From Lingula anatina (lineage: Eukaryota; Animalia; Brachiopoda): a stretch of DNA of 64,000 nt. Shown one piece after another: positions 6,531 through 61,900 of the stretch. The notes under the pieces are model-generated. The model saw only the letters and a list, made by a program, of their open reading frames with translations, did no database searches and was not told the origin of the DNA. The stretch covers positions 2,542,001-2,606,000 of the forward strand of contig CM120643.1 in the NCBI GenBank assembly GCA_051362555.1, written 5' to 3'. Every line of letters starts with the position of its first letter. Position 1 is the first letter of the stretch. Position numbers and translations under genes: made by a program.

Positions 6531-9500
6531 TTTGTATTGATTCACAGTGTGTTCGTGTGTGTGCGGGCGTGCACGTGTATTTGTGTGTCTGTTTGCATGA
6601 GGGAGACTAAGAAAATACACGTGTAACTGATGTAAGAGAGAGATTTTTTCTGTTCTATATAGTTTACGATTCACAGAATTGATGTGAAAATAATGAATTC
6701 TGGGTAATTACTTATATAATATTGGAGTGTCCCGAGTTAAGTTAAAGGGATAAAAACTCTTCATATGAGATCCAAATTTCCGCAATAATACATTGCAAAC
6801 AACACACGGAAATATAATCAATTTCATTTTACCACGAAACGGCGGTTATATGAATTATTCTTGTCATCGGACCGCGTGGACTTCATAGCTGACTACCCTT
6901 GTAATAGTCTCTTAAGAGATTTTAACTAAAAAAACACATTAAAAAATCGACAAAACCTTGACTGTCGGAACGGATACATAAACCATTGATAAGCACGCAT
7001 ACGTCAACCCGTTTTTCTTTCTTTTCGCCAAAATTAGGGGCTATTATCCCTTTAGCCATTGCGATATGCAACCTAGACAGTGTTTGCAAGGTGGCAACAA
7101 TACATACCGTGCCTTTGTTCTTCTGAATATCCAATTCTATATTAATTTAACAACAGATTAACACACATTTACACTATATAGCATAAATATTTTATATTTC
7201 GAGCAATTTTATCGGCGTAAATTATTATCAATATCAAATTATTATTAGTCAACAAGAAAAGAGATATTGCTAAATATTATCTAATAATCAACTTTCACTC
7301 TCTCTGTTTTTCCATCCGTTGTTTTTCCAAAAGAAATCAAGAGTCTCCGGCATCTCCATAGGCAACGCCTCCCAAATAATAAGAGAAACAAACCAAATAT
7401 TGCAAAAATGAAATAAACATAAGGAGAATTTAAAAAGTCTAAAAATAAATCGGAAAAATCTGTGCTCTTTTCATCGCCAGTACATCGCGTCCTCCAAGGC
7501 TTGAAATTATGAATTTGTGACACTTCTGTTGGCTGTTTCATCCATTGGACAAGTTCCTGCACTGTGATGATGTAGACGTCCTTGTAAGATGCGACGTATT
7601 CTATGAATTGTTTGACGATGTCCACCCCCTCGGGGTGGCTTTTAAACCAGCTGGAGTGAAGAAGCAAACACAAGGGGGCGCGGTTGTTCTCATAGTGGAG
7701 ATTAAAATTATGGACGTAGAATTCAAAGACGTCTTCATCCTCGGAAAAATCACACCCCAAAGCGTCGGCCCCGTTGCAGCTTTCCCCCGTCTCTTTCCTG
7801 AACGGGCGATTCACGGGCACTGCCCAAAACCCGGGGTAGGACCCCCTGGGACAGTTTAAGCTCCCCACGCGGCCGTTGTCGCAAACCGTCCCAACTTGAG
7901 GCGGGAAATCCAGGGTGTACGGAAACAGCGGAAGGGATCGATCCTTAAAATGGAGCGAGCCTGTCAGCATTGATTTATCGTACACGAAATTATTATCGTA
8001 CAGAGCTTTGTACATGTTGTCCCCACCTATGCTCATGAACGGCACTCGTACACCAACTAAATCGCCTTCTGGTATTCCTGCCCTTTGGGAAATCTTCCGT
8101 CGTTGCCCTACCATCTCTTTTACGTAGTCTTTATATGTAGCGTTCCCACTCCACCATTGCTCAGGGTAGGTATGACTCAGGGAGTGCACCGCTATTTCAA
8201 GACCTCGACCATGGAGCTCTTTTGCCACTTCATACTGGGTCTCTAGACCAAATCCGTCGGCGGCGTCTGACACGAAGAACGTGCCCCCTATGGGGCATCC
8301 GTTGGGATTCTTGTACTTGGGATTGAAGATGGCCCGGAAGTAGTCGATGTTGACAGAGTGTACTGCGTCGTCAAAGGTGATTAAGATCACTTGAGGCGTC
8401 TTGGACGGTTCGATGTTCCCCGGGGGATTCGAGCTTGGGCAGTGACACTTGGGAATGTGACACTCGGACGGGGCACACGTCTCAGCGTCCGGTGCGCGTC
8501 CCAGTTCATCCGCGTTAACTGTCCCAGCTCCTTGAAGAAATAGACACAAGCTGACGTAGTGATAAACCCACAGTAGAAACGGCAGCGAAGAATATATAAT
8601 CTTCATTCCGATCTCGTATCTCATAAAACGTGGGGCATAAAACCCTGAGAGAGAGAGACAGCGAGGCAAATACGTCGCGACAAGTGATAAAGCTCCCTTA
8701 TGGTATTATAAAGTACTTGCCAGGTGAAGGCCAAACCATCAACAGGATATTAAAGCAGTCTCACTGTGTTAATACTATTTAGCATGGTACAGTATCAACA
8801 TTATTCAGAAACGCGTGAGTAGGTCTTCTACAGATGTGTCATTTTGTCTGTTAAAGTTCATTTCTCTGTGACAAGCCTTTATTCAATCTCCCCGGCTGTA
8901 GAATATGGATAAGACTGAAGAGAAAGTGGCAGTACATGTTCAAGCGAGGTGTTTTCAAGAACTACATTTACTTTAAATCAAAGTTACATATAAATCAACA
9001 AGCACGCGAGTGTCCGCTCACACGTTAAATTGTCTCGAATAATAATAAGGATAGGTTATGTACTTTCAGCGTACTTTGTTCAGTCGACTCCAGTTCTCCC
9101 TAAATAAAGGAATTAGATAAGAATGATCTTATACCTTTATTGTCTCTTTCCAAATTTTATCAGGTTTGCGACCTTATTACCGAAATAAAAACGACTCGTG
9201 AACTTCAAATCCTACACAACAAATATTATTTCAATTTTCTTTCCGAGATGCACTGGACTTAGTAAAGTTGCGGTTCAAATCACTAGTACATCTCCATCAG
9301 GATTTTGGCTATTATTCAAAATCCACTTCACTCTTAGTCTAAATGGTTAAAAAATAGCTGCATTTCATGCATTAACTTCGATCTAATTTCACAGTAGACT
9401 CTCTACTATATGTAGGCCTACGTATGCCCCGTTAAATAAACTGACGCGATAGGCAGCGAATTCAGTTGAGTAAACTGTTAAATAACGTCACGAAATATAA

Positions 9501-12558: not shown

Positions 12559-14294
12559 GTTTAAGACAAATGCCCGAGTAAACTCTCTTATTACTGTGAA
12601 TCGCTTCAGAAATGATAGAGAGATGTTCACATCGCGTTCATTTACTACGGTGACACGAATTTCAACGGTATCGTTGTTTCGCGATAAGGGGCCTATCTGC
12701 ATATACGTGAATGTATCTTCTGTTTAACCCGATTCGATAATTTTTTAATAATCAATCACTGAATGTTGCCTTTGGTGAACGCCAAAATGTGTAATTGCAG
12801 GAACGACATATACCACGGATAATGGCATGCTTCAGTTTTATTCAGAATTGCAATATGTCTTCGTCTAGGTGGTTAGCTACTGAACAAATGTAGTCTAAGT
12901 TGCAAAGCTTGAAATCTGTGGCGACAATTAAATGTAACCTAATTGTCCGCACTTCACTGTGACCTTCCCCTAAAGTTTACAGGCCGTTGTTATATATATG
13001 GCAGAGGGAAACAGGAAAAGATCAACGGAACTAATAAATTTCCTCTGACACAGTTGGTACATATGTCCCCGCCATCCTATAGATAATGGTTTTTCAATGT
13101 AAAAGACTACTAGTCGTATGGACACCTCGGCCTAATGCACTTGTTCTATGTGTGTCAACGCCCGCAGGGATGAGACGGTCATTAAGTGAAAAAGTCTAAA
13201 AAAATATGGCGTGGGATCCAGGGGGCATCTGTTTCGATCTCAAAAATGATTTTTTGGCTCCCCAAAAAATCGGAGATCAGCCGATAGTCGCAAAAATCCC
13301 ATTACTGCGCCTGGAGTGAAATGAGCCGGGGTCATTATGACAGTTCTCCGCCCCAACTGATACAGTTTTGCTGAACTCTACAAAGTTCATCTATTTTTTA
13401 TATTTATTTATGTATTTATTTTGTTTATTTATTTATTTATTGTAGACTAAATAGTTTCAAAGCGGCGGCGAGCTGGTTTATGTTTGAATTTCATCTCGAC
13501 GTCAGTGAATAGATCAACCATTATATAACGCACTAAGGGTTCCGTAAATCTTGCATGGACGCCGAGAAAAAAAATCCCACGTAAAAATCTTTATGACATA
13601 ACTCAACAAGGGCGTTAACACAGGAAATCACTGATGTTGCGCGTCGTCAACTGTCGTCTGCCACAACTGAGCCGCGCTTTGAAATGATCGCCTGCTAATG
13701 AGTCTCGCATCATAGTAGTCCGTCACGTCAAGGAAACGGAAACAATTTACAAACTCAACGCCCGACATTAAATCGTCCCCGTTCGGCTAAGCTAAGAAGA
13801 ATAAAAGGAACATATTTATGAACGCTGTATGTTCCCCACTCCCTATTTCAGATGGTGGTTTCTTTGGATCCAAAGCCGTCATCCAGTACATGACCATCAC
13901 GGCGGCCGCTCTGTTGTTATTGTTCAGTATGGTTTTCCTAGCGTGTGCCTGGCTAACCAAGAGAAGAAATCAAGCCGAGCAGGCAAAGTAAGTTCTATCT
14001 CCTGTTTAATTTTTTTATTAATACATCTACCTGTGCACGTGTAGGCCTATTATAAAACTCATGTGTTGCTAAATTAGTTAAATTCATCCAATCTTTCTTC
14101 ATTTCCCATGCTTTTAGCTCTACTTATTATCATTTTACCATAAGACCATTCGTTTCTTCGAGGAATTAGAATCTCAATACAAAAAGGCCAAAAGGTTCTT
14201 TTTCTTACTCTGTCAACTAAATAAATATGGAACGCATGAAAGACCATTAGTCTTATTTCTGTAAATTTGATAGGATACTCTCAACGCCTCCGGT

Positions 14295-17192: not shown

Positions 17193-20100
17193 CTATTTTC
17201 CTTCAGCGTCACTCACTGATGGAGATTCATTTCCTGAAGGAGAATCACACACCCTCAAAGATGGGCCCTGGTCTAAAAATGCCTGTAATTCATTGTCCAA
17301 ATCTGCAGGGGTGTCATCATGACTCAGATGAGACACAGCCTGTGATTGGGCATCTTCATTATCTCCTGCTCCATCTGATTGGTCCCCTGGATTTGGAATG
17401 GAGATCCCCATAGCAGACCTGACAGCATCAGTGGATACCACTTCTCCAGGAGTCACCTAAAAAAAAATTAAGATACAATTATTAAATTGAAAATATATGA
17501 AAATACCTATGGAATTCTGGTGGCATTTTAATGACCAAATTGTGAAAACGTTGGAAGATTAAACATAATGCCTTTTCAAAAGATTCCCATAAGATATTAA
17601 GTTTCTAGTCACTTTCTAGTCTAAACAAATTCTGTGAAAGTAAAAATCTTAAACTGGCCAATATTAAGTCAACACACAAAATAAAACTCTTACAAGTTAA
17701 AATCACCATCACAATTCCCATCTTTACCTACCTGCTTGGTTAGTTTTGTTAACTGATCTGTCACTTGTCCAGCTAGAAAAAAGGTAGATGTATATATAAA
17801 TAATATAATAATAATATGCACAAAAAAGTAATTAGTATACATACATGTATATACAGAATATATGTAATCATCTCCAATATGTGTAACAGACTGTCATATA
17901 ATAAGTACATAGTAAAAATCAGACATTCAAATTTTAAGTAAAAAAATTGCTGAAATGCACCTGTTGACCCCTAAATAACCAGAAAACAACAACCAACAAA
18001 CCAAGCAACCAGCTTCCAACCAGCAAACAAAGAACCAACCAATCAACCAACCAAACCACCACCAATACACCTCCTGTTCTCTCCCTACCCAGTGTCATCT
18101 CCTTGGCCGAGGGGCCCTGGATGTGGGCTAGGTGTGCGGGGGGTTTCTGTCGCAGCCTCTCCTCCTGACTGTCCCGTAGGTTCTTGATCAGATCTGCCGC
18201 CGTGTTCAGCTCCTTCTGGACCTGCTTCTCTTTGCTTTGTTTCTCTGTAGATAGAATGAGAGATGTGAAATTTTTTTTATTTTGCTTCTCTGTGAGGATG
18301 GAGGGTGAAATAGGAGATAAAGAATTTTGGAATTGAAATCGACTGAGATTGGATTTTTTGAAGCTGTATCAGTTCATGTGAGCATTATCCCTTGTTTGGC
18401 TAAAAATACTTGGTTGACTAGTTTGATAAAATTACTTCTTTGTTACCATTTGAAAGCTATGAACTGATATTCAAAATAGGCACTAAACATGTAGTTTGTT
18501 TTTTTTTTGCTTCTCAAAAATTATACAAGAAATCCATTTCAAGAAACAAAAACTTACCAAAATTGTCTAAGAATGACATATCAATACCCAGTTCTGATTC
18601 CAGGGATTTCAGTTCTTTAAAATTGATTTCTGGATCTGATGACTTCGTCTCTTCACTATCAGTCTCCATTTTTTCTTCATTTGGTTTGTCTCCATCTACT
18701 CCCTGTTTGAAACAAATGAAAAAATTCAGTATTTCTATTTTTTTTACATTCTCAGACAATTTTTATCAATTTCACTTTTCTCTTCCACTAAATTTGGATC
18801 AGCCAATTAATTATGCGATTACTCAGATCTGTTACAGGTTGAAACATTAGACCTGTAGGAAGCGGGATGTGGGAGGTCTAAAAGAACTGCCTATTTAGAT
18901 CAAAGTTGGATCCAGATTCTATGGCATTTCAACAGCTGGTCAACAGAAGGGGTGTAAAGGTCGACTATTTCAATACCTTGTCTGTAACTTTTTGACCTTC
19001 ATCCTTGTTCAGTTTCTCTTCTTGCTTTTTCTTTTCTTCTTCTTCTTTCTGTAACACAATAAAATATATTTATATACAGACTATGTATAAACTTAAATCC
19101 ATTTAACAGACAGCTTTAATCCTTCCAAAATGTCTGGTTTTCTCAGACAAAATCCCATCATTTACTCATTTGTGGCGTATGTTTTAAAAATTGTTTTCAA
19201 AAAAAGAAAATGTACCTTTTTCAGCAGCATTTTCTGTGCCTTGGCGTGCTCTCCTCCAGTGAGATAATTTAACAAACTGTCCACCAGAGTGACCGTCTGG
19301 GTGCCGCAGTTCTCAACAAAATCCTTCAGGCTGGAATACAGTACTCTCTTAATTAAGATTTATTAAACTTACATAATTCTAAAACTGTCTTTTTCTTAAA
19401 ATTACTTTCTCTTTGTCAACAAAGCTGAACTCTTAAGATCAAATTAGAACAATTAACATTTCATAGTGCTGTGGACAGTAATAATATCAGTATGGAAATG
19501 ACAGTACTATTCAAGAAGACTTCCAATGTCATAAGCCCCCTACCTGTTGGCATACTGAACACCAGTTTCACAGCCGTATGTAGAGAGCAACAGGTCTGAA
19601 TCCTCCTTGGAAAGGTTGGCAAACGAAGAGTCGTATGACGGGGCGAAGCTGCTGAATGGGGCGTAACTGAGGTAGTTCACTGGAAGAGTGGAGAAGTGGA
19701 AATAGTACATGATTACAAACTTGACAACCCATCTTAGCTCAATAAAAGTGATTCTCAAGTAACTGATATAGTTTCCCCCAATTTCATGTTATAAATGTAT
19801 ACTTACATCAATATTCTAACAAATATGTAATGATAATAACTTAAAAATTGGATATCTGCCACATATAACCACATCACAACATCACCGTCACCACACACAG
19901 ACACACACATACATACACAGACACACATACACACAAACAGACCCCCCCCCCCCCCACACACACACACACGCAGAGACAACACACACAGCCCAATACCATA
20001 CCTGGTTTGACTACATTTCTCTTATCTTCCTTGAAGCCTGATATAGCCCCCGTGCCCTGGCTGAGTTTACCCACCAGACCTCCTATAGTGATCACTCTCT

Positions 20101-23100
20101 CTGTTTCACTCACTGGAATATAAATCACATCAATAACACTAGTCTATACATGTGATATAGCCCCCGTGCCCTGGCTGAGTTTACCCACCAGACCTCCTAT
20201 AGTGATCACTCTCTCTGTTTCACTCACTGGAATATAAATCATATCAATAACACTAGTCTATACATGTGATATAGCCCCTGTCCCCTGGCTGAGTTTACCC
20301 ACCAGACCTCCTATAGTGATCACTCTCTCTGTTTCACTCACTGGAATATAAATCATATCAATAACACTAGTCTATACATGTGATATAGCCCCCGTGCCCT
20401 GGCTGAGTTTACCCACCAGACCTCCTATAGTGATCACTCTCTCTGTTTCACTCACTGGAATATAAATCATATCAATAACACTAGTCTATACATGTGATAT
20501 AGCCCCCGTGCCTTGGTTCAGTTTACCCACCAGACCTCCTATAGTGATCACTCTCTCTGTTTCACTCACTGGAATATAAATAATATCAATAACACTAGTC
20601 TATACATGTGATATAGCCCCCGTGCCTTGGCTGAGTTTACCCACCAGACCTCCTATAGTGATCACTCTCTCTGTTTCACTCACTGGAATATAAATCATAT
20701 CAATAACACTAGTCTATACATGTGATATAGCCCCCGTCCCCTGGCTGAGTTTACCCACCAGACCTCCTATAGTGATCACTCTCTCTGTCTCACTCACTGG
20801 AAGATAAATCATATCAATAACACTAGTCTATACATGTGATATAGCCCCCGTGCCTTGGCTGAGTTTACCCACCAGACCTCCTATTGTGATCACTCTCTCT
20901 GTCTCACTCACTGGAATATAAATCATATCAATAACACCAGTATGATAAACCCTCTAAACATATGTTTTATGATTAAAGTTGGCCATTATTTCTATACAAA
21001 ACACTGTTTATTTTTAGTTTATTCACTGTTAAGTGTGTGTCCATGATAGGACCAGTCAGAGGGTGGCAAGGTGGGGGTCAACAGATTTCAACCAAATTCA
21101 TAATATTGTTGCATATGGAGGAGATATTAAGATTGAAGGCAACAATCCCAAAAGAAATCATTGGATATAATTATAATATGATATTTTATGTTTTGGCCAT
21201 TTTTGGCTTGATTTTCAGCTTCGGTCAATAAAGCCACTTCATAAGCAAATATGTCAAAACTGATGACTTTTTAAAATTAATTGAAAATTTACTTATTTAA
21301 ACCAGCCATTTGCCATTGAGAATATGTTACTAAATTTCAGTTTAACCCACAAACTAACGAGCCATGCCCATTTTTATGACCCCACCCCCCAAACTCACTT
21401 TTCTACCAAGCAATGTTCAAGCATTCATATCTCTCTTTTTGCAGGCTTGACAGCCATAAAATTTTATAGAAATCCTAAGCATATATTGGTCTAATCATAC
21501 AAAATTCAAAAAGTGTGTTAAACACAACAGAAGATATTGAAAAAGTGCCTCAAACTTTAGCAATTTTAGCAGAAAACCAAACGGCCGAAATCAAGATATC
21601 AGTACATTTTGAGATAATACCTTCCAATAATCAAATTTAATCAAAGACTCACAGCCAGGAATTCAAACTATGCTTTGATAACGGCAAATCTATCCAATTT
21701 TTATAAATACAAAATGGCTGCCATCAAATCTGCCCCAAAATACAGTTACCCTAATTCCTCAAAATAATCAAGAGGCCCATTTTTGCAGGTTTTTTATTTT
21801 GAGATCTGTAATACAGGATTGCTCAAATAATATTCTTTTCAAACAGAGCCATACAACTTCTGAATAAATTTAAATTACTAGTGACAAGTTATTCACCCCC
21901 CCCCCCCCCCCCCCATTTAATAAGTTATTACTGTGCATATCCAGTATCATCAGCATTGTGTATATACCTTATTTTCAGGGAGCAATAGAGAAAAAAATTA
22001 CAAATGATTTTTCTAAAGGTAAAAGGGAATGACTTTCTCATTTTATCAGTTTTCTCAAGTGCAACACTAATTAATCCACTTGAAATGATTTATATTGCAT
22101 TTTTCAACCAATTTTTTTCCTTTCAAATGATTCATAGGCTTTGTAAATACATGTGATATCTTGATATCTATATTCTTTTTCTATAAAGAAAATTAAAACA
22201 GAGTCAGCAACATACAATAACAGGAGGAGTACTTTATTTTCATATTATCAATTGGACAGTAAAAGAACAAAGCAGTTACTTTTTACAGGAGTGAAATCAA
22301 GTTATGAATCTCCAAGGTTCCAATATCACGGTCATCTTTTCCATATACTGAACACAACAGTGATGGGTAGTGTTCCACAGATTTTAATCTTATAACTGAT
22401 TGGTCCCCAAGTTTCTTCTTCTGGTTGAGAGATCCAGGGTCTCCTACAGTAATGATAATTCAGCAATCTTAGAATAAGTGTGGTAACTTGAAGCAACATG
22501 CCACTATAGTTTAGTGTGACTGAACTGTCAATTGTCAATATTTGTCAATTCAATGGCGCCAATTATCCTCCTTTCCTACAAAACTGATTGAGATTACCAA
22601 GCCTAAGATGCACATTTGTTATGGGGGATTGACCCAAGGTGGCTCTAAGTCCAATAGAGGTTTGCCACGATATCCACTACTGCATCTACCTGAAGATGGC
22701 AGGACAGGCTGTCAAAAGAAAATGTATTTAACATATTTTAAACTCATGTTAATTGCTGTATAAGAACAATTACTAAATAATATTCTGATCAAACATATTG
22801 CATAAGTGTAAAAAAGGAAATCAAATATGCATGATTGTAGCTACCAGAATTTCATGATAGAAAAAGAAACAAATGAAAAAAAGGTAAACCCTTTTTCTTC
22901 TCCGTGGAAGTGTTCCAGGCATTACAAAGTTGGTGGTCACATCTGAATCTGATGAATTTGCCTGTGCAATTTCAGGTGACTTTTCTATTATTGTCTGTAA
23001 GATTGTCCAGGTCCAGGTTCACATACAGGCCTAGGATGTAAAATCTGAAAAATAAACATAACATCAATAAATGCTTTACAACAACAGAGGCTTACTGTGT

Positions 23101-46974: not shown

Positions 46975-49900
46975 TTAGTGCACTTCCTGGGGGCCGTCCT
47001 GTTCCCTGATGGCCTGACCTTGTTGCTTGGGTTGCATACAGGAGCGGGCCACAGACTCAAACAGCCTGAAATAGCAAGCAAAAAACATGATTCAAACAAT
47101 TTGAGTACATTCATTTAAAATACAAATAACCATTAGTGGACAACCTTTTCTTCCATCTCAGGAGAAAAAAATCTCTTCAATAAATAAGTGAATGTTTTTA
47201 ATTGTCCAATTGAATTAGAAAGAGAACTACGTATAACTCTGATACTGAAACTTAAATAAGTTACAGACTGACCAGTATCACAGTTATTTATAAACAGCTC
47301 TCAAATCTCTTCAATCCAACTGACGTAACCAAACTAAAACCACCCCATGTACAAGTAGATGAGATATGGGATGAGACTGCCACTTTGTGGAAAAGTCAGA
47401 AAATATGGCATGGGTCTAGGCCTATGGTATTTTTTTTAGGACACCAAAAGTCAGAAAACTGCTGTCAGTCAGTAAAATCTCATCTGTACATATGATATAC
47501 GAAAAACAAAAAGTTCTTACTTCTCTATCTCCGGTGCACAGTGGACAAAGTCATGATTCCAGAACTTGAAACTTGGGTTTTTGATCAGCTCAATGAAGGT
47601 GATGAGCAGGCCCCAGGGGTGGGGGCGGTTCACTATCAACCTCTCCAGGAGAACCCTGGGGACAAAAACATAGGAAAAATCTTAATCTTGATCGTTGTAA
47701 ACATTTTAACACCAGAAAGATGCATCTATGAAGATCTACTATAAAGATGTAATATACAATCCAAGCTTTCAGCCCCTAGGCCTTCTTCAGGGATTTGATT
47801 TTTTTTTTTTTTTTTTTTTTTGAAGCTTGGTTTTCTTGACCAGCTCAATGAAGGTGATTTGAAAAAAAGAAAAAAATTCAAATCCCTGAAGAAGGCCTGG
47901 GGGCCGAAATCTTGAATTAGATATACATCTTTATAGTAGATCTTCATAATAGCACCATTATAATAACTTATCTATTTCTTAAAGATCTATACAGTAATTC
48001 CAAATGAATCTTCAAAGCACCAGAAAGAAGGACGGTGCATTTGTTTCAACTTCCACAAATGTTCCTGCAACTCGACAGCAGAGAACACCTTTGTAAAAAC
48101 AGAGTTTACTTTACCCAGCATTTACCACTAAACAGACGCTAGAAGTCTCGTCTAGCTGGCTTAATTAACTGGGAAGGAGGCAGAAAAACGCTAGTGTGTG
48201 TGTGTGTGTCTGTGTGTGCATGCATGCATGCATGGGTAATCAGAAATATGCAATTAATGTAACTCTGAGACGGAGTTTCGTACCTGGTAATCTGTTCCTG
48301 TATTGCCTCACTGTTGGCCTCAGCAAAGAGATAGAGCAAAGTACAGCTGAAGTAGTGGGTGTGACTGTTGGGATAACGCAGCTGGTTGGCTATGGCATTT
48401 AGGAACAGGTAACGACCTGAAATTAAAGCCAATATATAAATATATATACACATATAACACATACAGTGCAATACACAGATCTTTTTATACAGTAACTGTG
48501 AAAAATAAGCAATTTCTTTCTTTTATATTATAAAACAGGCACATAAATAAAAATTTACTGGACTACAACTACTAACTTATCTTTTATTTCAGTCCCACAG
48601 TAAAGACAAAATTTCGAAACTAAGCTTCTTTCGTAAAACCAGCCAAAGACCCACCTTCCGTGTCCAAATCCACGGCCAAATTCTGGAAGATATCCATGTG
48701 GGAGGAGTGCGCGATGGTGCTCATGCTCGGCTGCAGGCCCTTGCTGTGGATAAATGTGATGGCCTGGGTCCCCACGTACAGGACCAGGGCGTTGATCAGT
48801 GGGATGTTGTAACGGTTCCCAGGCTCGCTGGAGATCTGAAGACTGCTGCGAAGCTCGGACAGGAAGGTCACGGGTGACCTGGAGGTCAAGTATGAGTCCA
48901 TGTCCTGCGACAGGAAACAGTTGAATATAGAACTAGCATCATAAAAACTTCAAATTGACAAAATTTGGCTTTGAACTTTTATTTAGTACTGAAGGTGTTG
49001 TGTTCATTAGGTTTAAGAATCCAAGTACTTTACTTAAATTTGACCCAACATCTGTTCATAAAAAGGTTCTTATTACTGAAATTTACATTTTTGTCCTTCT
49101 GCACATATTATACATCCAGTTATGAAAACTATAATATACAGATTCAGATATTTTCTTTCAAACATTTTAAACATAGTAAATTATGTACAACCTCCAACCA
49201 TAAAAATAATTTTAAACTCAAATTTCAATTCTATTCCTTTTCATATATTTTCAGGGAGAACATATGGTATGAGCACTCACATTTTTAAATCCCTTGGGCT
49301 GGATCATCTTGGCAAAGTTGGTCATAATCCTAGGGGGCATGGCAATCTCCGGCAACATGTCCACCTTCAAGTTGGGCGTGAACGGATCTGGCAGACGCAT
49401 GTTGCGCGGGAATGCGCTCAGGATGAGGTTGCGCATCTGGATACAGTTAGGAGGGATGACATCACAGAAGGCGTAGTGGAAGTCGCACAGGAACTCTGGG
49501 AAATCGTGCAACAGAACCAGCAGCACACGTAATGTTCCCTGGAGATAAAATAATCAGATCCTTAGCTAATATAAACTGTTTAAACTTATCATGAATGAAG
49601 AAGTCCAATAAGAATACATAAGAATATATTTCATAAGAGTAAAAACAGTCAAAAAGACATGTCACTGTCGTCTAATCTCCATGCCCCTCTCACCTTGTAC
49701 AACAGCTGTGTTGGTTTGTCCAGATTGGCGTTACGTAAGAATGGCGCCAGGAACTTGAACAGATCGCTCAGGAGTTGTGCGTACATGCTCCACCCCTGTA
49801 ACAGGAAAAACATTATTGCTTGTTAAAGATGTGAATTATACTGTGCTATAATAAGTTGATGAGATGGTTGTAAGAATTCAGAAGGTGTGTCACACAGGTG

Positions 49901-58900: not shown

Positions 58901-61900
58901 TGAATTTTTTTATACTGATCCTAATGTGAAGGAGACTGGCTAATATTTCCTTGTAAATCATCTGTCCAGCCAAAAGTTGAACCATTTTATCAGTGCCCCA
59001 GTCCCCCCACCTTAATGTTCCTGTACGTCTCCGAGATAATCATGTCCGACAGAGGCTGGATCTTCAAGACCTCAGCAAAGTTGGCGTAGAGCGTGTGGAA
59101 GTTGGGTTCGATGCTAGCCCTCTTCATTACCATGTACTGGGAGACCCAGGGGATGTAGTCTAAGCTGACGTGTTCACGCAGCTCCTCTGCCTGTGTGGGG
59201 AAACAGAATATATACATAATACAGAGTAATGGCAGCTTTTCCCCCTGTGTGGGAGGAAAACAGAATATATACCTAACCTAAATACACAGTTATGGCAGCT
59301 CCTTTGCCTGTGTGGGGGAACAAAATATATATACATACACAGTTATGGCAGCTTTTTCACCTGCCTGGCAGGATCAAAACACCCTCAATATTCACTAACA
59401 TATCACATTAATTCCAGTGACTCTCTTACACACTCAAAGGGGACTCGAGTCTATAAGACTAAATGAAATCTTTCAAACGGTGAAAATCCCCCTTTCCCTG
59501 CTGGTACAGCACCCATCCACCCCTCTTACCTTCTGGGCCATGTTAGCCAGTGACAAGTTGTTGAAGATAAAGAACACTTTGTCTTGGAGAGCCTCTGGGG
59601 GGACGCTGGTCTCCTCTTTCCCCTCTGTCCCTGCCAGCAGGGTGTCAATGTTGGTAGCATTAGCTATAGACGGCTGGAACAACACAGAGATGACAAAATG
59701 TGAAATACAATAACCATGGGTAAATAAAAATTCATGTCTCTGACTGCAGACTGTTGAAAAGAATGTGAATAATTTTCTTTTTAGAGTTAATAACAACTGA
59801 AACAACAACACATTCACCAAGTTTGAAGTAGTTTCAGCAATAATACAATTCTTTGGTAAGTAAAAACCGACAATGGCAAATAATTTAATGATTAACATAA
59901 TTACATAAGTAACTAAATGCATTTTCCTGGCAGTAGAGGAATCACAAATAACCCTACCTTGGTCTGGAAACTAACACTCGTAGGTTTGGTGACGGCAGCA
60001 GTCGCAGCGGCCGTGGTCGTGGTGGTTGTCACGGTGACAGTACTGACCACAGGGGGTCCACTGGGAGTCAGGCTCCGGGTGGAGCTGGTAGAGACCACAG
60101 GACCCTGGGGGCGGTTGGGGGGCTCCTGGGAGCGGGACCCGAAGTCCACGTACTCTATCATGTGCTGGGGGAACTGGCTGAAGTGAGGGATTCTAGCCAG
60201 GTGTTGGCAATACACTGGGTAGTCCTTCAGTCTGGAACAATATAGGTCAAAGGTTATGAAAAACTAGGTCAAAGGTCATGGAAAACTAGGTCAAAGTTTG
60301 TGAGTAACTAGACTTAAGGTCACAAGGTATCAGAATTGATAATGATTAACATGCTGAATCTTCAAATAGGTTGAACTTGTTTTGTCTGCAGTGGAGAATT
60401 TATCCATTCATTAAAGTCAAATACATCACATTCATACTTGACTATTCTGAATGGTTAAAATAAAATCAACAAGGGCAAACAATTTCCACATACTACAGTT
60501 GACAGTACAGCATGTAATCAAGTGAAGGAAAAAGATCAAATGGCAGATACACGATTAAAGAATTTGTGCAATTTAGTCAATATCTTCCTAAGTTAATTTT
60601 TTCTTCCCACTAACACAGGTTTTGTTAACATTTGTTAAAGTCTTCCAAACTTTCCAATTATAACAGATGATTCCCCCCCCCCAAAAAAAATCTCCAATCT
60701 CCCCCTTTACTCCTTCCCAAATCTCCATGCATACCCCCCCCTCTTTACCTGGTTTTGAACCTGTCCAGTGCAGCTATTCCAAACAGGTACATCTTGCTCC
60801 CACTCGGCTTCCTGAGAGCATCCAGCACGTATCTCAATGCTACGCCTAGCGCCATGTAACTAAAAATATCAACACAATTCCATAAGTCAGCACGCCCACA
60901 CAGGACATCACAAGGCTTGGATTGTTAATGAACAATACAAACAAGGTAAAAAAAATATAATAAAATCTTAAAATATTATGTCTTATAAGTGACAGGGCTG
61001 TAGCATGCCCATGTAGGACAGGGGTGGACTGAAGCCATCTTCTGCCCCTTCAGCAAACATTGGCGGATATCTAATTATTTTTTCTGTTGGAACTCAGTCA
61101 AAATTGGAGGATGGATCAACAAGAATAATTAAGAAGACTGTCAGAAAATATTGCTGGAATCACCTCTGTAAGACATCTCAGGTCTTGGATTGAAAATATA
61201 CAGTTCAGGTAAAATAATAGAATAAAATCTCAAAAAATTATTTCCTTTATCTGATTAAACAATAAACCCAGTCTGCAGTTAAGACCAACTATTGACTCAA
61301 ATTCTTGCTCTCCCCATACAAAAGATTTATTATCAAACAACTTACGTGACAAGTCCTTGCTCGATAATTCCACCAAACAAGATGGCGGTGGTCTGCAACT
61401 CTTTCTCAGGGTATTGTGGGAAGAATCGGTACTCCTCAAACAAGTTGCGCAGCATGCACGCAAAAACATCCTGGATAACATAAATGTGAATACTTTAAGA
61501 AATGCACCAAGCAGAAGTGATAACAGATTTGCGGAAAAAATTTAATGACTGTTTTTCTCTTCAGGTAAAAAGAGATAATTGAAAATGGAGCAAATAGGCC
61601 AAACGGATACGGATATGGAGAAATAGTAGCAGAGAACCTTTTCCAATACCAATCTGTCTGCCATCTGCTCTCCTTCAGATTCAGAACAAAATATTATAAA
61701 TAAAAATTAAATAAAATAAAAAATTAATTAATTAATACAACTCAAAGTTAATAATTAATAACCCACCCGTTCTTTCTTCACGGGGGAGTCCTTGAACCTC
61801 TTCAGCATCTCGAGGACCTCGTCAATAGTGATGGTTGGGTGTGGCGGGTGGTTGTAGATCCTCTGGAAATACGAGTTGGCCTCGTCTTCCACCTCCTTAG

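What the first reader, a model, noticed from the sequence alone, without database searches (positions are those of the whole stretch)
47727..47948. Double-hammerhead palindrome whose loop is a captured copy of the neighbouring CNOT1 exon
Seen: a 222-bp inverted repeat in the intron upstream of CNOT1 exon 47521-47655. Each arm holds a minimal type I hammerhead motif (47758-47795 minus, intact; 47881-47918 plus, two changes). The ~39-nt loop (47820-47858, ttgaagcttggttttcttgaccagctcaatgaaggtgat) matches exon sequence 47566-47603 in the same orientation, including an exact 18-mer. Known: minimal hammerheads with a palindromic helix III are typical of Penelope-like retroelements and retrozymes, and are thought to act as dimers. 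Inference: a ribozyme-bearing mobile element that picked up local host sequence during insertion or repair. In the pre-mRNA the ~90-bp stem should mask the ribozyme and display an exon-derived loop, and could be an ADAR or Dicer substrate.
Basis: partly seen in the sequence, partly recalled or inferred. Interest (0 to 1): 0.85.

Follow-up and report, generated by a model that had tools for sequence, protein, structure and literature searches.

The report
Penelope stump with exon-copied centre
In a lamp-shell (Lingula) gene intron, two mirror-image ends of a likely Penelope-type jumping gene, each with a hammerhead ribozyme motif, enclose a 39-base copy of the exon next door; this is likely an old repair patch made while the element inserted, a known kind of accident, and the hairpin is predicted to keep the ribozyme switched off.

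Summary
It is a 297-bp insertion (47721-48017) between 11-bp direct repeats (47710-20, 48018-28; likely a target-site duplication) in a Lingula CNOT1 intron. It has two head-to-head 72-bp arms, a one-sided 62-69-bp tail and a minimal hammerhead in each arm, the published layout of Penelope-like insertions. The arms belong to a multi-copy family; the loop is single-locus. The loop matches the exon 107-144 bp away (35/39) and carries exon alleles seen in other haplotypes. Hairpin parts are shared by haplotypes whose adjacent intron differs at 18 of 65 sites, and contig arithmetic points to centre deletions in two. Folding predicts the ribozyme is fully masked. RNA reads splice normally. Most likely both target strands primed cDNA, and a microhomology-led template switch copied the exon before the ends joined, as reported for L1 and R2. 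No RT gene was linked, no cleavage tested, and local capture at other copies could not be tested. The scan noted similar flank-copied Penelope centres in other genomes. One unexplained point: the paired stem differs less between haplotypes than its flank.

The parts
47521..47655 (-).
   Evidence: translation and splice dinucleotides; RNA depth 13-17 and spliced reads
47566..47603 (+). Donor of the loop, internal to the exon, 107-144 bp from the insertion site
47710..47720 (+). Left copy of the 11-bp direct repeat CACCAGAAAGA (likely target-site duplication)
   Evidence: longest repeat between the two boundary boxes; 78 of 5000 random box pairs have one; family contigs stop at 47718-47721
47721..47798 (-). 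Inverted (shorter) copy of the element end, no tail
   Evidence: family depth in the thousands
47758..47795 (-). Minimal type I hammerhead, near family consensus, in pre-mRNA sense; predicted cut between 47763 and 47762
47799..47821 (+). T23 tract at the left junction (TT microhomology with the exon donor)
47820..47858 (+). Loop: templated copy of exon 47566-47603; single-locus
47856..47884 (.). Right junction: GAT microhomology, 8-bp mini fold-back GATTTGAA / TTCAAATC around an A tract
47877..47948 (+). Direct copy of the element end; many family contigs begin at 47877-47880
47881..47918 (+). Decayed hammerhead copy (changes at 47910, 47915)
47949..48017 (+). One-sided tail (62-69 bp), part of the repeat family
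   Evidence: record 5 and record 7 end at 48017; loose ends before 47719 read as its reverse complement
48018..48028 (+). Right copy of the 11-bp direct repeat
48039..48176 (-). Probable H/ACA snoRNA in the same intron, 3' end 10 bp from the insertion
   Evidence: SNORA70 21.8 bits, below the gathering score of 40; two hairpins, H-like and ACA boxes

Best explanation
This 297-bp insert between 11-bp direct repeats is likely an old, inactive stump of a Penelope-like retroelement, whose two mirror-image arms were likely reverse-transcribed separately from the two cut target strands and whose 39-base centre was likely copied from the nearby exon by a microhomology-led template switch before the ends were joined. 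Shown: repeat-flanked boundaries, head-to-head arms, one-sided tail, multi-copy arms, single-locus loop, match to the exon, junction microhomologies (TT; GAT) and an 8-bp fold-back. Inferred steps: (1) the endonuclease makes an 11-nt staggered cut; (2) the bottom strand primes at the distal start (48017) and the top strand at the proximal start (about 47948-47955), which gives the tail; (3) at the RNA 5' end (about 47877) one cDNA snaps back for 8 nt and anneals by ATC/GAT to the top strand exposed by resection, copying 38 nt of exon; (4) it joins the other cDNA through TT/AA. A DNA template is my first choice (about 65:35); copying of the nascent CNOT1 RNA by the top-strand cDNA gives the same orientation. 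In a head-to-head layout the antisense arm is transcribed first on either strand, so the hammerhead is predicted to be trapped in the long stem, and the insert is probably tolerated rather than functional.
For: Boundaries: 11-bp repeat where family contigs end. Family: arm depth up to about 8400 against 79-98 (X1, X2), 69 (X9) and 0 (X10) over the loop bin; other copies join an antisense part to a sense part starting at 47877-47880 through different short spacers (table 5c). The family majority restores the hammerhead at 47771, 47910, 47915. Motif class is real: 24 of 32 unrelated loci with the same core have a palindromic helix III not fixed by the search pattern, about 2% expected per locus (three pairs of loci look like duplicates). 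The loop has G and C where the window's exon has A (47571) and T (47580); other haplotypes' exons have that G (X2, X9, X10) and C (X2, X9, one of two X10 contigs), so the loop records an older allele. Masking: helix I and II pair probabilities 0.69-0.95 alone, 0.0 in the element or intron. Tolerated: 9 and 15 reads splice across in two RNA runs, no joint into the hairpin; X10 record 11 has 77 letters for 285 window letters, X2 record 17 lacks 37. Literature: inverted pLTR, one-sided tail, 8-10-bp TSD, host DNA captured between pLTRs (PMC3846280); both strands cut and extended, two RT starts (PMC11167929); locally templated DNA in L1 insertions (PMC11702581); R2 cDNA snap-back onto itself or nearby target DNA (PMC11371274).
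Against: No RT or GIY-YIG gene is linked to this family: none among 119 of 123 ORFs from the 32 look-alike loci. No empty site: every haplotype whose junction is visible keeps part of the element, so the TSD rests on position and a 1.6% chance rate. The tail (62-69 bp) is longer than the 30-40 bp described. Helix II is 4 bp, shorter than the 7-8 bp given for Schistosoma PLE hammerheads. Local capture is a single case: 0 of 5 testable spacers in other animals' palindromes matched their flank in the same orientation (1 weak opposite-orientation hit), and two share an element-encoded spacer. Against 'no function': the left arm differs between haplotypes at about 5 of 67 sites against 18 of 65 in the adjacent intron (p=0.003) and about 9 of 33 in the unpaired tail (p=0.012), and no fixed change is listed in 26 loop positions. 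The arm and tail counts are by subtraction from cut tables. A 38-nt insert from over 100 bp away is longer than the 3-10-nt Pol theta insertions in the review read.
Confidence: 0.78

Rival explanations
1. The reverse transcriptase itself jumped from the element RNA onto the nascent CNOT1 transcript at the site, copied 38 nt and jumped back (RNA-templated capture in cis). This is a variant of step 3 of the best explanation.
For: Top-strand cDNA is antisense to CNOT1 mRNA, so the orientation fits. The one loop difference found against all exon haplotypes seen (47840 C against 47585 T) is A to G in mRNA sense, the mark an edited or miscopied RNA template would leave. L1 RT switches between RNAs (PMC11702581).
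Against: The copy crosses no splice junction, so nothing demands RNA. One transition carries little weight. Resected DNA 107-144 bp from the cut explains the same orientation.
Confidence: 0.25
2. The exon copy entered later, or earlier, by local duplication unrelated to integration (mirage-type duplication, or repair of a break at the hairpin tip).
For: Local duplications are common here: 5 other loci in 64 kb, one a 114-bp array that overlaps an ORF edge. Mirages are described in amphioxus (PMC3087553) and noted for Lingula in e1-10600167. The hairpin is deletion-prone.
Against: Mirages are tandem and span an exon-intron boundary; this copy is exon-internal, single and sits exactly at the arm junction inside the 11-bp repeat, so an earlier origin is very unlikely. 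No haplotype with both inner arms and no loop was seen, though few were visible.
Confidence: 0.14
3. The hairpin has been kept by selection, for example as a dsRNA or cleavage signal that affects release of the snoRNA 10 bp away or turnover of the intron.
For: Lower divergence of arm and loop than of flank and tail; shared across deeply split haplotypes; next to a probable snoRNA.
Against: Inferred deletions of 37 nt and about 208 nt in two haplotypes; right hammerhead decayed; the two arms differ at 7 of 72; haplotypes recombine within tens of bases (X1 is window-like at 47571/47580, other-like from 47616), so local divergence is patchy; whole-element divergence is about 26 of 265.
Confidence: 0.1
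4. A foldback or MITE-type DNA transposon that happens to carry the motif.
For: Long inverted arms and a direct repeat; no ORF seen.
Against: The arms do not reach both ends (one-sided tail); family copies join at varied internal points; the consensus is a complete PLE-type minimal hammerhead.
Confidence: 0.04

Closest known systems
Endonuclease-positive Penelope-like insertions with inverted pLTR and one-sided tail (PMC3846280, passages; PMC8557442, passages; PMC8969392, passages)
   Same: Head-to-head inverted copy, tail on one side, direct repeat of about 10 bp, unrelated host DNA captured between solo pLTRs inside a TSD.
   Different: No ORF remnant; tail 62-69 bp; the captured piece has an identified donor 107-144 bp away, which the passages read do not report.
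Minimal hammerheads of metazoan PLEs (PMC4209133, parts 1-2 of 4 read)
   Same: Core, extra nucleotide before helix II, G10.1-C11.1 in the family majority, palindromic 15.2-16.2, 5-bp helix I; pairs on opposite strands 100-700 bp apart were already seen in Schistosoma.
   Different: Helix II of 4 bp rather than 7-8; both copies locked in one stem; activity untested.
Anolis PAc in vitro mechanism (PMC11167929, parts 1-2 of 4 and passages)
   Same: Both strands cut and extended, two RT start sites that define the tail; fits two separately primed arms.
   Different: That paper does not resolve the joining step; its hammerhead needs the protein and is dispensable for insertion in vitro.
L1 insertions with DNA templated near the site (PMC11702581, section 7 and passages); R2 snap-back junctions (PMC11371274, passages); Pol theta templated insertions (PMC9962433, passages)
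   Same: Short local copy and fold-back at the cDNA junction with microhomology.
   Different: Other element classes, human cells; here a germ-line fossil between two mirror-image PLE ends.
Non-LTR retrozymes (bioRxiv 10.64898/2026.07.22.740005, search-listing abstract and passages)
   Same: Non-coding, hammerhead-bearing, PLE-derived.
   Different: Retrozymes are head-to-tail tandem units; this is a single inverted pair.

Membership tests
EN+ Penelope-like element insertion | RT plus GIY-YIG ORF in, or linked to, the family | not testable with these tools
   No genome held; the stump has no ORF; 0 RT or GIY-YIG hits in 119 of 123 ORFs from look-alike loci of other animals
EN+ Penelope-like element insertion | Inverted copy adjacent to the 5' end (head-to-head) | tested here: met
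   other family copies show antisense-to-sense joints
EN+ Penelope-like element insertion | One-sided tail of 30-40 bp | tested here: inconclusive
   A one-sided extension exists but is 62-69 bp
EN+ Penelope-like element insertion | Short target-site duplication | tested here: met
   11 bp at the family boundaries; 78 of 5000 random box pairs; no empty site seen
EN+ Penelope-like element insertion | Dispersed multi-copy family | tested here: met
   135-142 contigs laid per DNA run on 47600-48040, most over the arms and tail
PLE minimal hammerhead | CUGANGA and GAAA core with one extra nucleotide before helix II | tested here: met
   both arms
PLE minimal hammerhead | G10.1-C11.1 pair and palindromic 15.2-16.2 | tested here: met
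   Family majority has both; left arm has G-U and AGCU, right arm has G-C and a broken palindrome
PLE minimal hammerhead | Self-cleavage as a dimer or with protein | not testable with these tools
   The dimer form scores -17.3 against -27.1 kcal/mol for the best alternative; no cut ends listed at depth under 10
Non-LTR retrozyme | Head-to-tail tandem units | tested here: not met
   single inverted pair, no other copy in the window
Mirage duplication | Tandem copies spanning an exon-intron boundary | tested here: not met
   exon-internal single copy 254 bp away (definition from PMC3087553)

The most novel reading that the evidence does not exclude
During two-ended Penelope integration the reverse transcriptase bridges its two cDNAs by copying the host's own nascent transcript at the target, so centres of PLE palindromes are a fossil record of local RNA. 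Here the resulting hairpin, 10 bp from a snoRNA and slower-changing than its flanks, has also been kept because it shapes processing of the CNOT1 intron.
Probability: 0.07. Interest if true: 0.7.

Novelty: new member of a known kind. Interest (0 to 1): 0.27.

Why it matters
How Penelope-like elements join their two ends is unresolved in the papers read. A centre copied from an exon has an unambiguous donor, orientation and junctions, and it keeps an older allele, so such cases can separate DNA from RNA templates if collected genome-wide. The head-to-head layout also predicts that the hammerhead is silenced in any read-through transcript, which may explain why such stumps are tolerated in introns of essential genes. 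As a single fossil it changes little.

Tried and rejected
Rfam: no hammerhead model matched; the miRNA-family hits are generic hairpin scores far below gathering; nothing at gathering in the window. Viral contigs: 0 matches. No RNA holder listed in the run index. In one search the joint 47854 to 47600 and the C>T at 47840 are artefacts: exon letters 47578-47599 lay outside the stretch and were laid on the loop; I dropped these rows and the RNA depth over the loop. RNA reads on the arms (depth 2-9) mostly show family-majority letters and foreign loose ends, so they come from other copies; the intron is at depth 0 in 47660-47704, which cannot test editing or cleavage. The second sequence type was first read as a paralog; rejected because X9 holds only that type and X1 is a mosaic. 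The G at 47831 in X2 record 17 lies next to a deletion and is not used as proof of the old loop state. The long ORF at L006 is not PLE-like. Core conservation between the two arms is uninformative (p about 0.29). The folds included 2 exon bases (the intron ends at 48283). A paper search for CNOT1-hosted snoRNAs found nothing. The Lingula genome preprint gave no data on PLEs or heterozygosity in the passages returned.

Full report
Observation. The inverted repeat, both hammerhead motifs and the exon match are present as described. The arms differ at 7 of 72 columns. The loop matches exon 47566-47603 at 35 of 39, score 59 against at most 36 for 100 shuffled loops over the whole window. Rfam has no hammerhead hit here, so the motif was checked by hand: AATCC, CTGAAGA, A, GGCC-TAGG-GGCT, GAAA, GCTT, GGATT on the minus strand. 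A neighbouring riboflavin-transporter ORF is 98% identical to Lingula anatina, so the host is a brachiopod.

True extent. An 11-bp direct repeat lies at 47710-47720 and 48018-48028; 78 of 5000 random box pairs of the same size hold such a repeat. Independently, contigs of other family copies stop at 47718-47721 and at 48015-48017. The insert is therefore 297 bp: short inverted arm, T23, loop, A tract, direct arm and a 62-69-bp tail on one side. This is the layout described for endonuclease-positive Penelope-like elements (PMC3846280, passages; PMC8557442, passages). Opposite-strand pairs of minimal hammerheads 100-700 bp apart were reported in Schistosoma (PMC4209133, parts 1-2 of 4).

Family and loop. 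In four DNA runs the arms carry summed depth up to about 8400, the loop bin 79, 98, 69 and 0. Other copies join an antisense part to a sense part starting at 47877-47880 through different spacers of 7-36 letters (table 5c). Majority letters restore a complete minimal hammerhead (47771, 47910, 47915 at 80-96% of depth). A scan of metagenome contigs gave 32 loci with the same core from other organisms; 24 of 32 have a palindromic helix III that the pattern did not fix, and 6 of 31 with upstream DNA have an inverted partner. Of 5 testable spacers, none matched its flank in the same orientation, one had a weak opposite match, and two resemble each other. None of 119 ORFs scanned (of 123; four from a duplicate locus left out) hit RT or GIY-YIG. 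Membership in PLEs thus rests on layout and ribozyme type, not on a linked ORF.

Age. The runs hold a second sequence type that differs at 18 of 65 intron sites next to the insert. X9 has only this type and X1 is a mosaic, so I read these as recombining alleles. Their exon has G at 47571 and mostly C at 47580, the letters found in the loop, so the loop preserves an older allele. All exon versions seen have T at 47585, while the window's loop and X9's loop contigs (depth 73 after removing mis-laid exon sequence) have C at 47840. All four runs carry at least part of the element at this site; no empty site was seen. Record coordinates imply a 37-nt deletion in one X2 haplotype and loss of about 208 nt, including both ribozymes and the loop, in one X10 haplotype, with a TAATA microhomology near both ends. 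These are inferences from tables; the contig sequences were not visible.

Mechanism. An Anolis PLE protein cuts and extends both target strands and starts reverse transcription at two sites that define the tail (PMC11167929, parts 1-2 of 4). Two cDNAs primed from the two strands explain the mirror arms, their unequal outer ends and the TSD. The centre shows TT shared with the donor start, GAT shared with the donor end, and an exact 8-bp fold-back. I infer snap-back, a jump to the exon 107-144 bp away, 38 nt of synthesis and end joining. Snap-back onto the cDNA or nearby target DNA is a known R2 junction class (PMC11371274, passages); three L1 insertions carried DNA templated near the site (PMC11702581, section 7); Pol theta makes such patches, though shorter (PMC9962433, passages). 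Exposed DNA or the nascent CNOT1 RNA would give the same orientation; one A-to-G difference in mRNA sense is the only hint for RNA. All these steps are inferred.

Function. Alone, the left arm forms helices I and II (probabilities 0.69-0.95); in the element or intron they fall to 0.0 and forcing them costs 47 kcal/mol. On either strand the antisense arm is made first. Two RNA runs (about 6% of each read) show exon depth 13-17, none in 47660-47704, and 9 and 15 reads spliced to the upstream exon with no joint into the hairpin. Editing and cleavage could not be tested. Against pure neutrality: the left arm differs between haplotypes at about 5 of 67 sites, against 18 of 65 in the flank (p=0.003) and about 9 of 33 in the unpaired tail (p=0.012), with no listed fixed change in 26 loop positions. 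Patchy ancestry or arm-guided repair could explain this; I could not settle it. A probable H/ACA snoRNA ends 10 bp from the insert.

Rivals. Local duplications are common in this window (5 other loci), and mirage repeats are described in amphioxus (PMC3087553, passages), but they are tandem and span splice sites. A DNA foldback element does not explain the tail or the ribozyme consensus.

Novelty. Layout, paired hammerheads and host DNA captured between pLTRs are published. I found no paper reporting a PLE palindrome centre traced to the adjacent flank (searches; the library lacks most subscription papers, and no supplements were read). Also seen as passages only: bioRxiv 10.1101/2024.08.27.596794, PMC8969392, bioRxiv 10.1101/2024.05.28.596352, bioRxiv 10.64898/2026.07.22.740005. 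This scan's own notes list similar flank-copied centres in other genomes; they are unchecked leads, and my two-ended reading was noted before I saw them. Verdict: real, a new member of a known kind, with an unusually clear donor; interest 0.27.

Noticed in passing
window 48039-48176 (-): Probable H/ACA snoRNA (two hairpins, H-like box, ACA 3 nt from the end; weak SNORA70 score), less diverged between haplotypes (8 listed changes in 138) than the intron.
   Followed up: partly
window 47521-48430: Lingula runs hold sequence types differing at about 28% of sites in a short intron stretch, recombined within tens of bases; suggests deep lineages or introgression under one species label.
   Followed up: partly
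window 19925-21022: Eight-copy 114-bp tandem array that overlaps an ORF edge in a bromodomain-like gene (label recalled); looks like a mirage repeat.
   Followed up: no
window 47341-47487; related copies near 13242, 54530, 62659: Fragment of another abundant dispersed repeat (depth up to about 8400) in the next CNOT1 intron.
   Followed up: no
window 60904-60982 and 61172-61244: Local 75%-identical duplication 268 bp apart inside CNOT1; nature not examined.
   Followed up: no
L012 1241-1578, L014 1260-1585, L004 958-1591, L026 359-665: Head-to-head hammerhead palindromes in other organisms; L012 and L014 share a similar, element-encoded spacer.
   Followed up: partly
window 7281-8705 (-): Long single ORF (474 aa) resembling a polysaccharide deacetylase (label recalled, not searched).
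   Followed up: no
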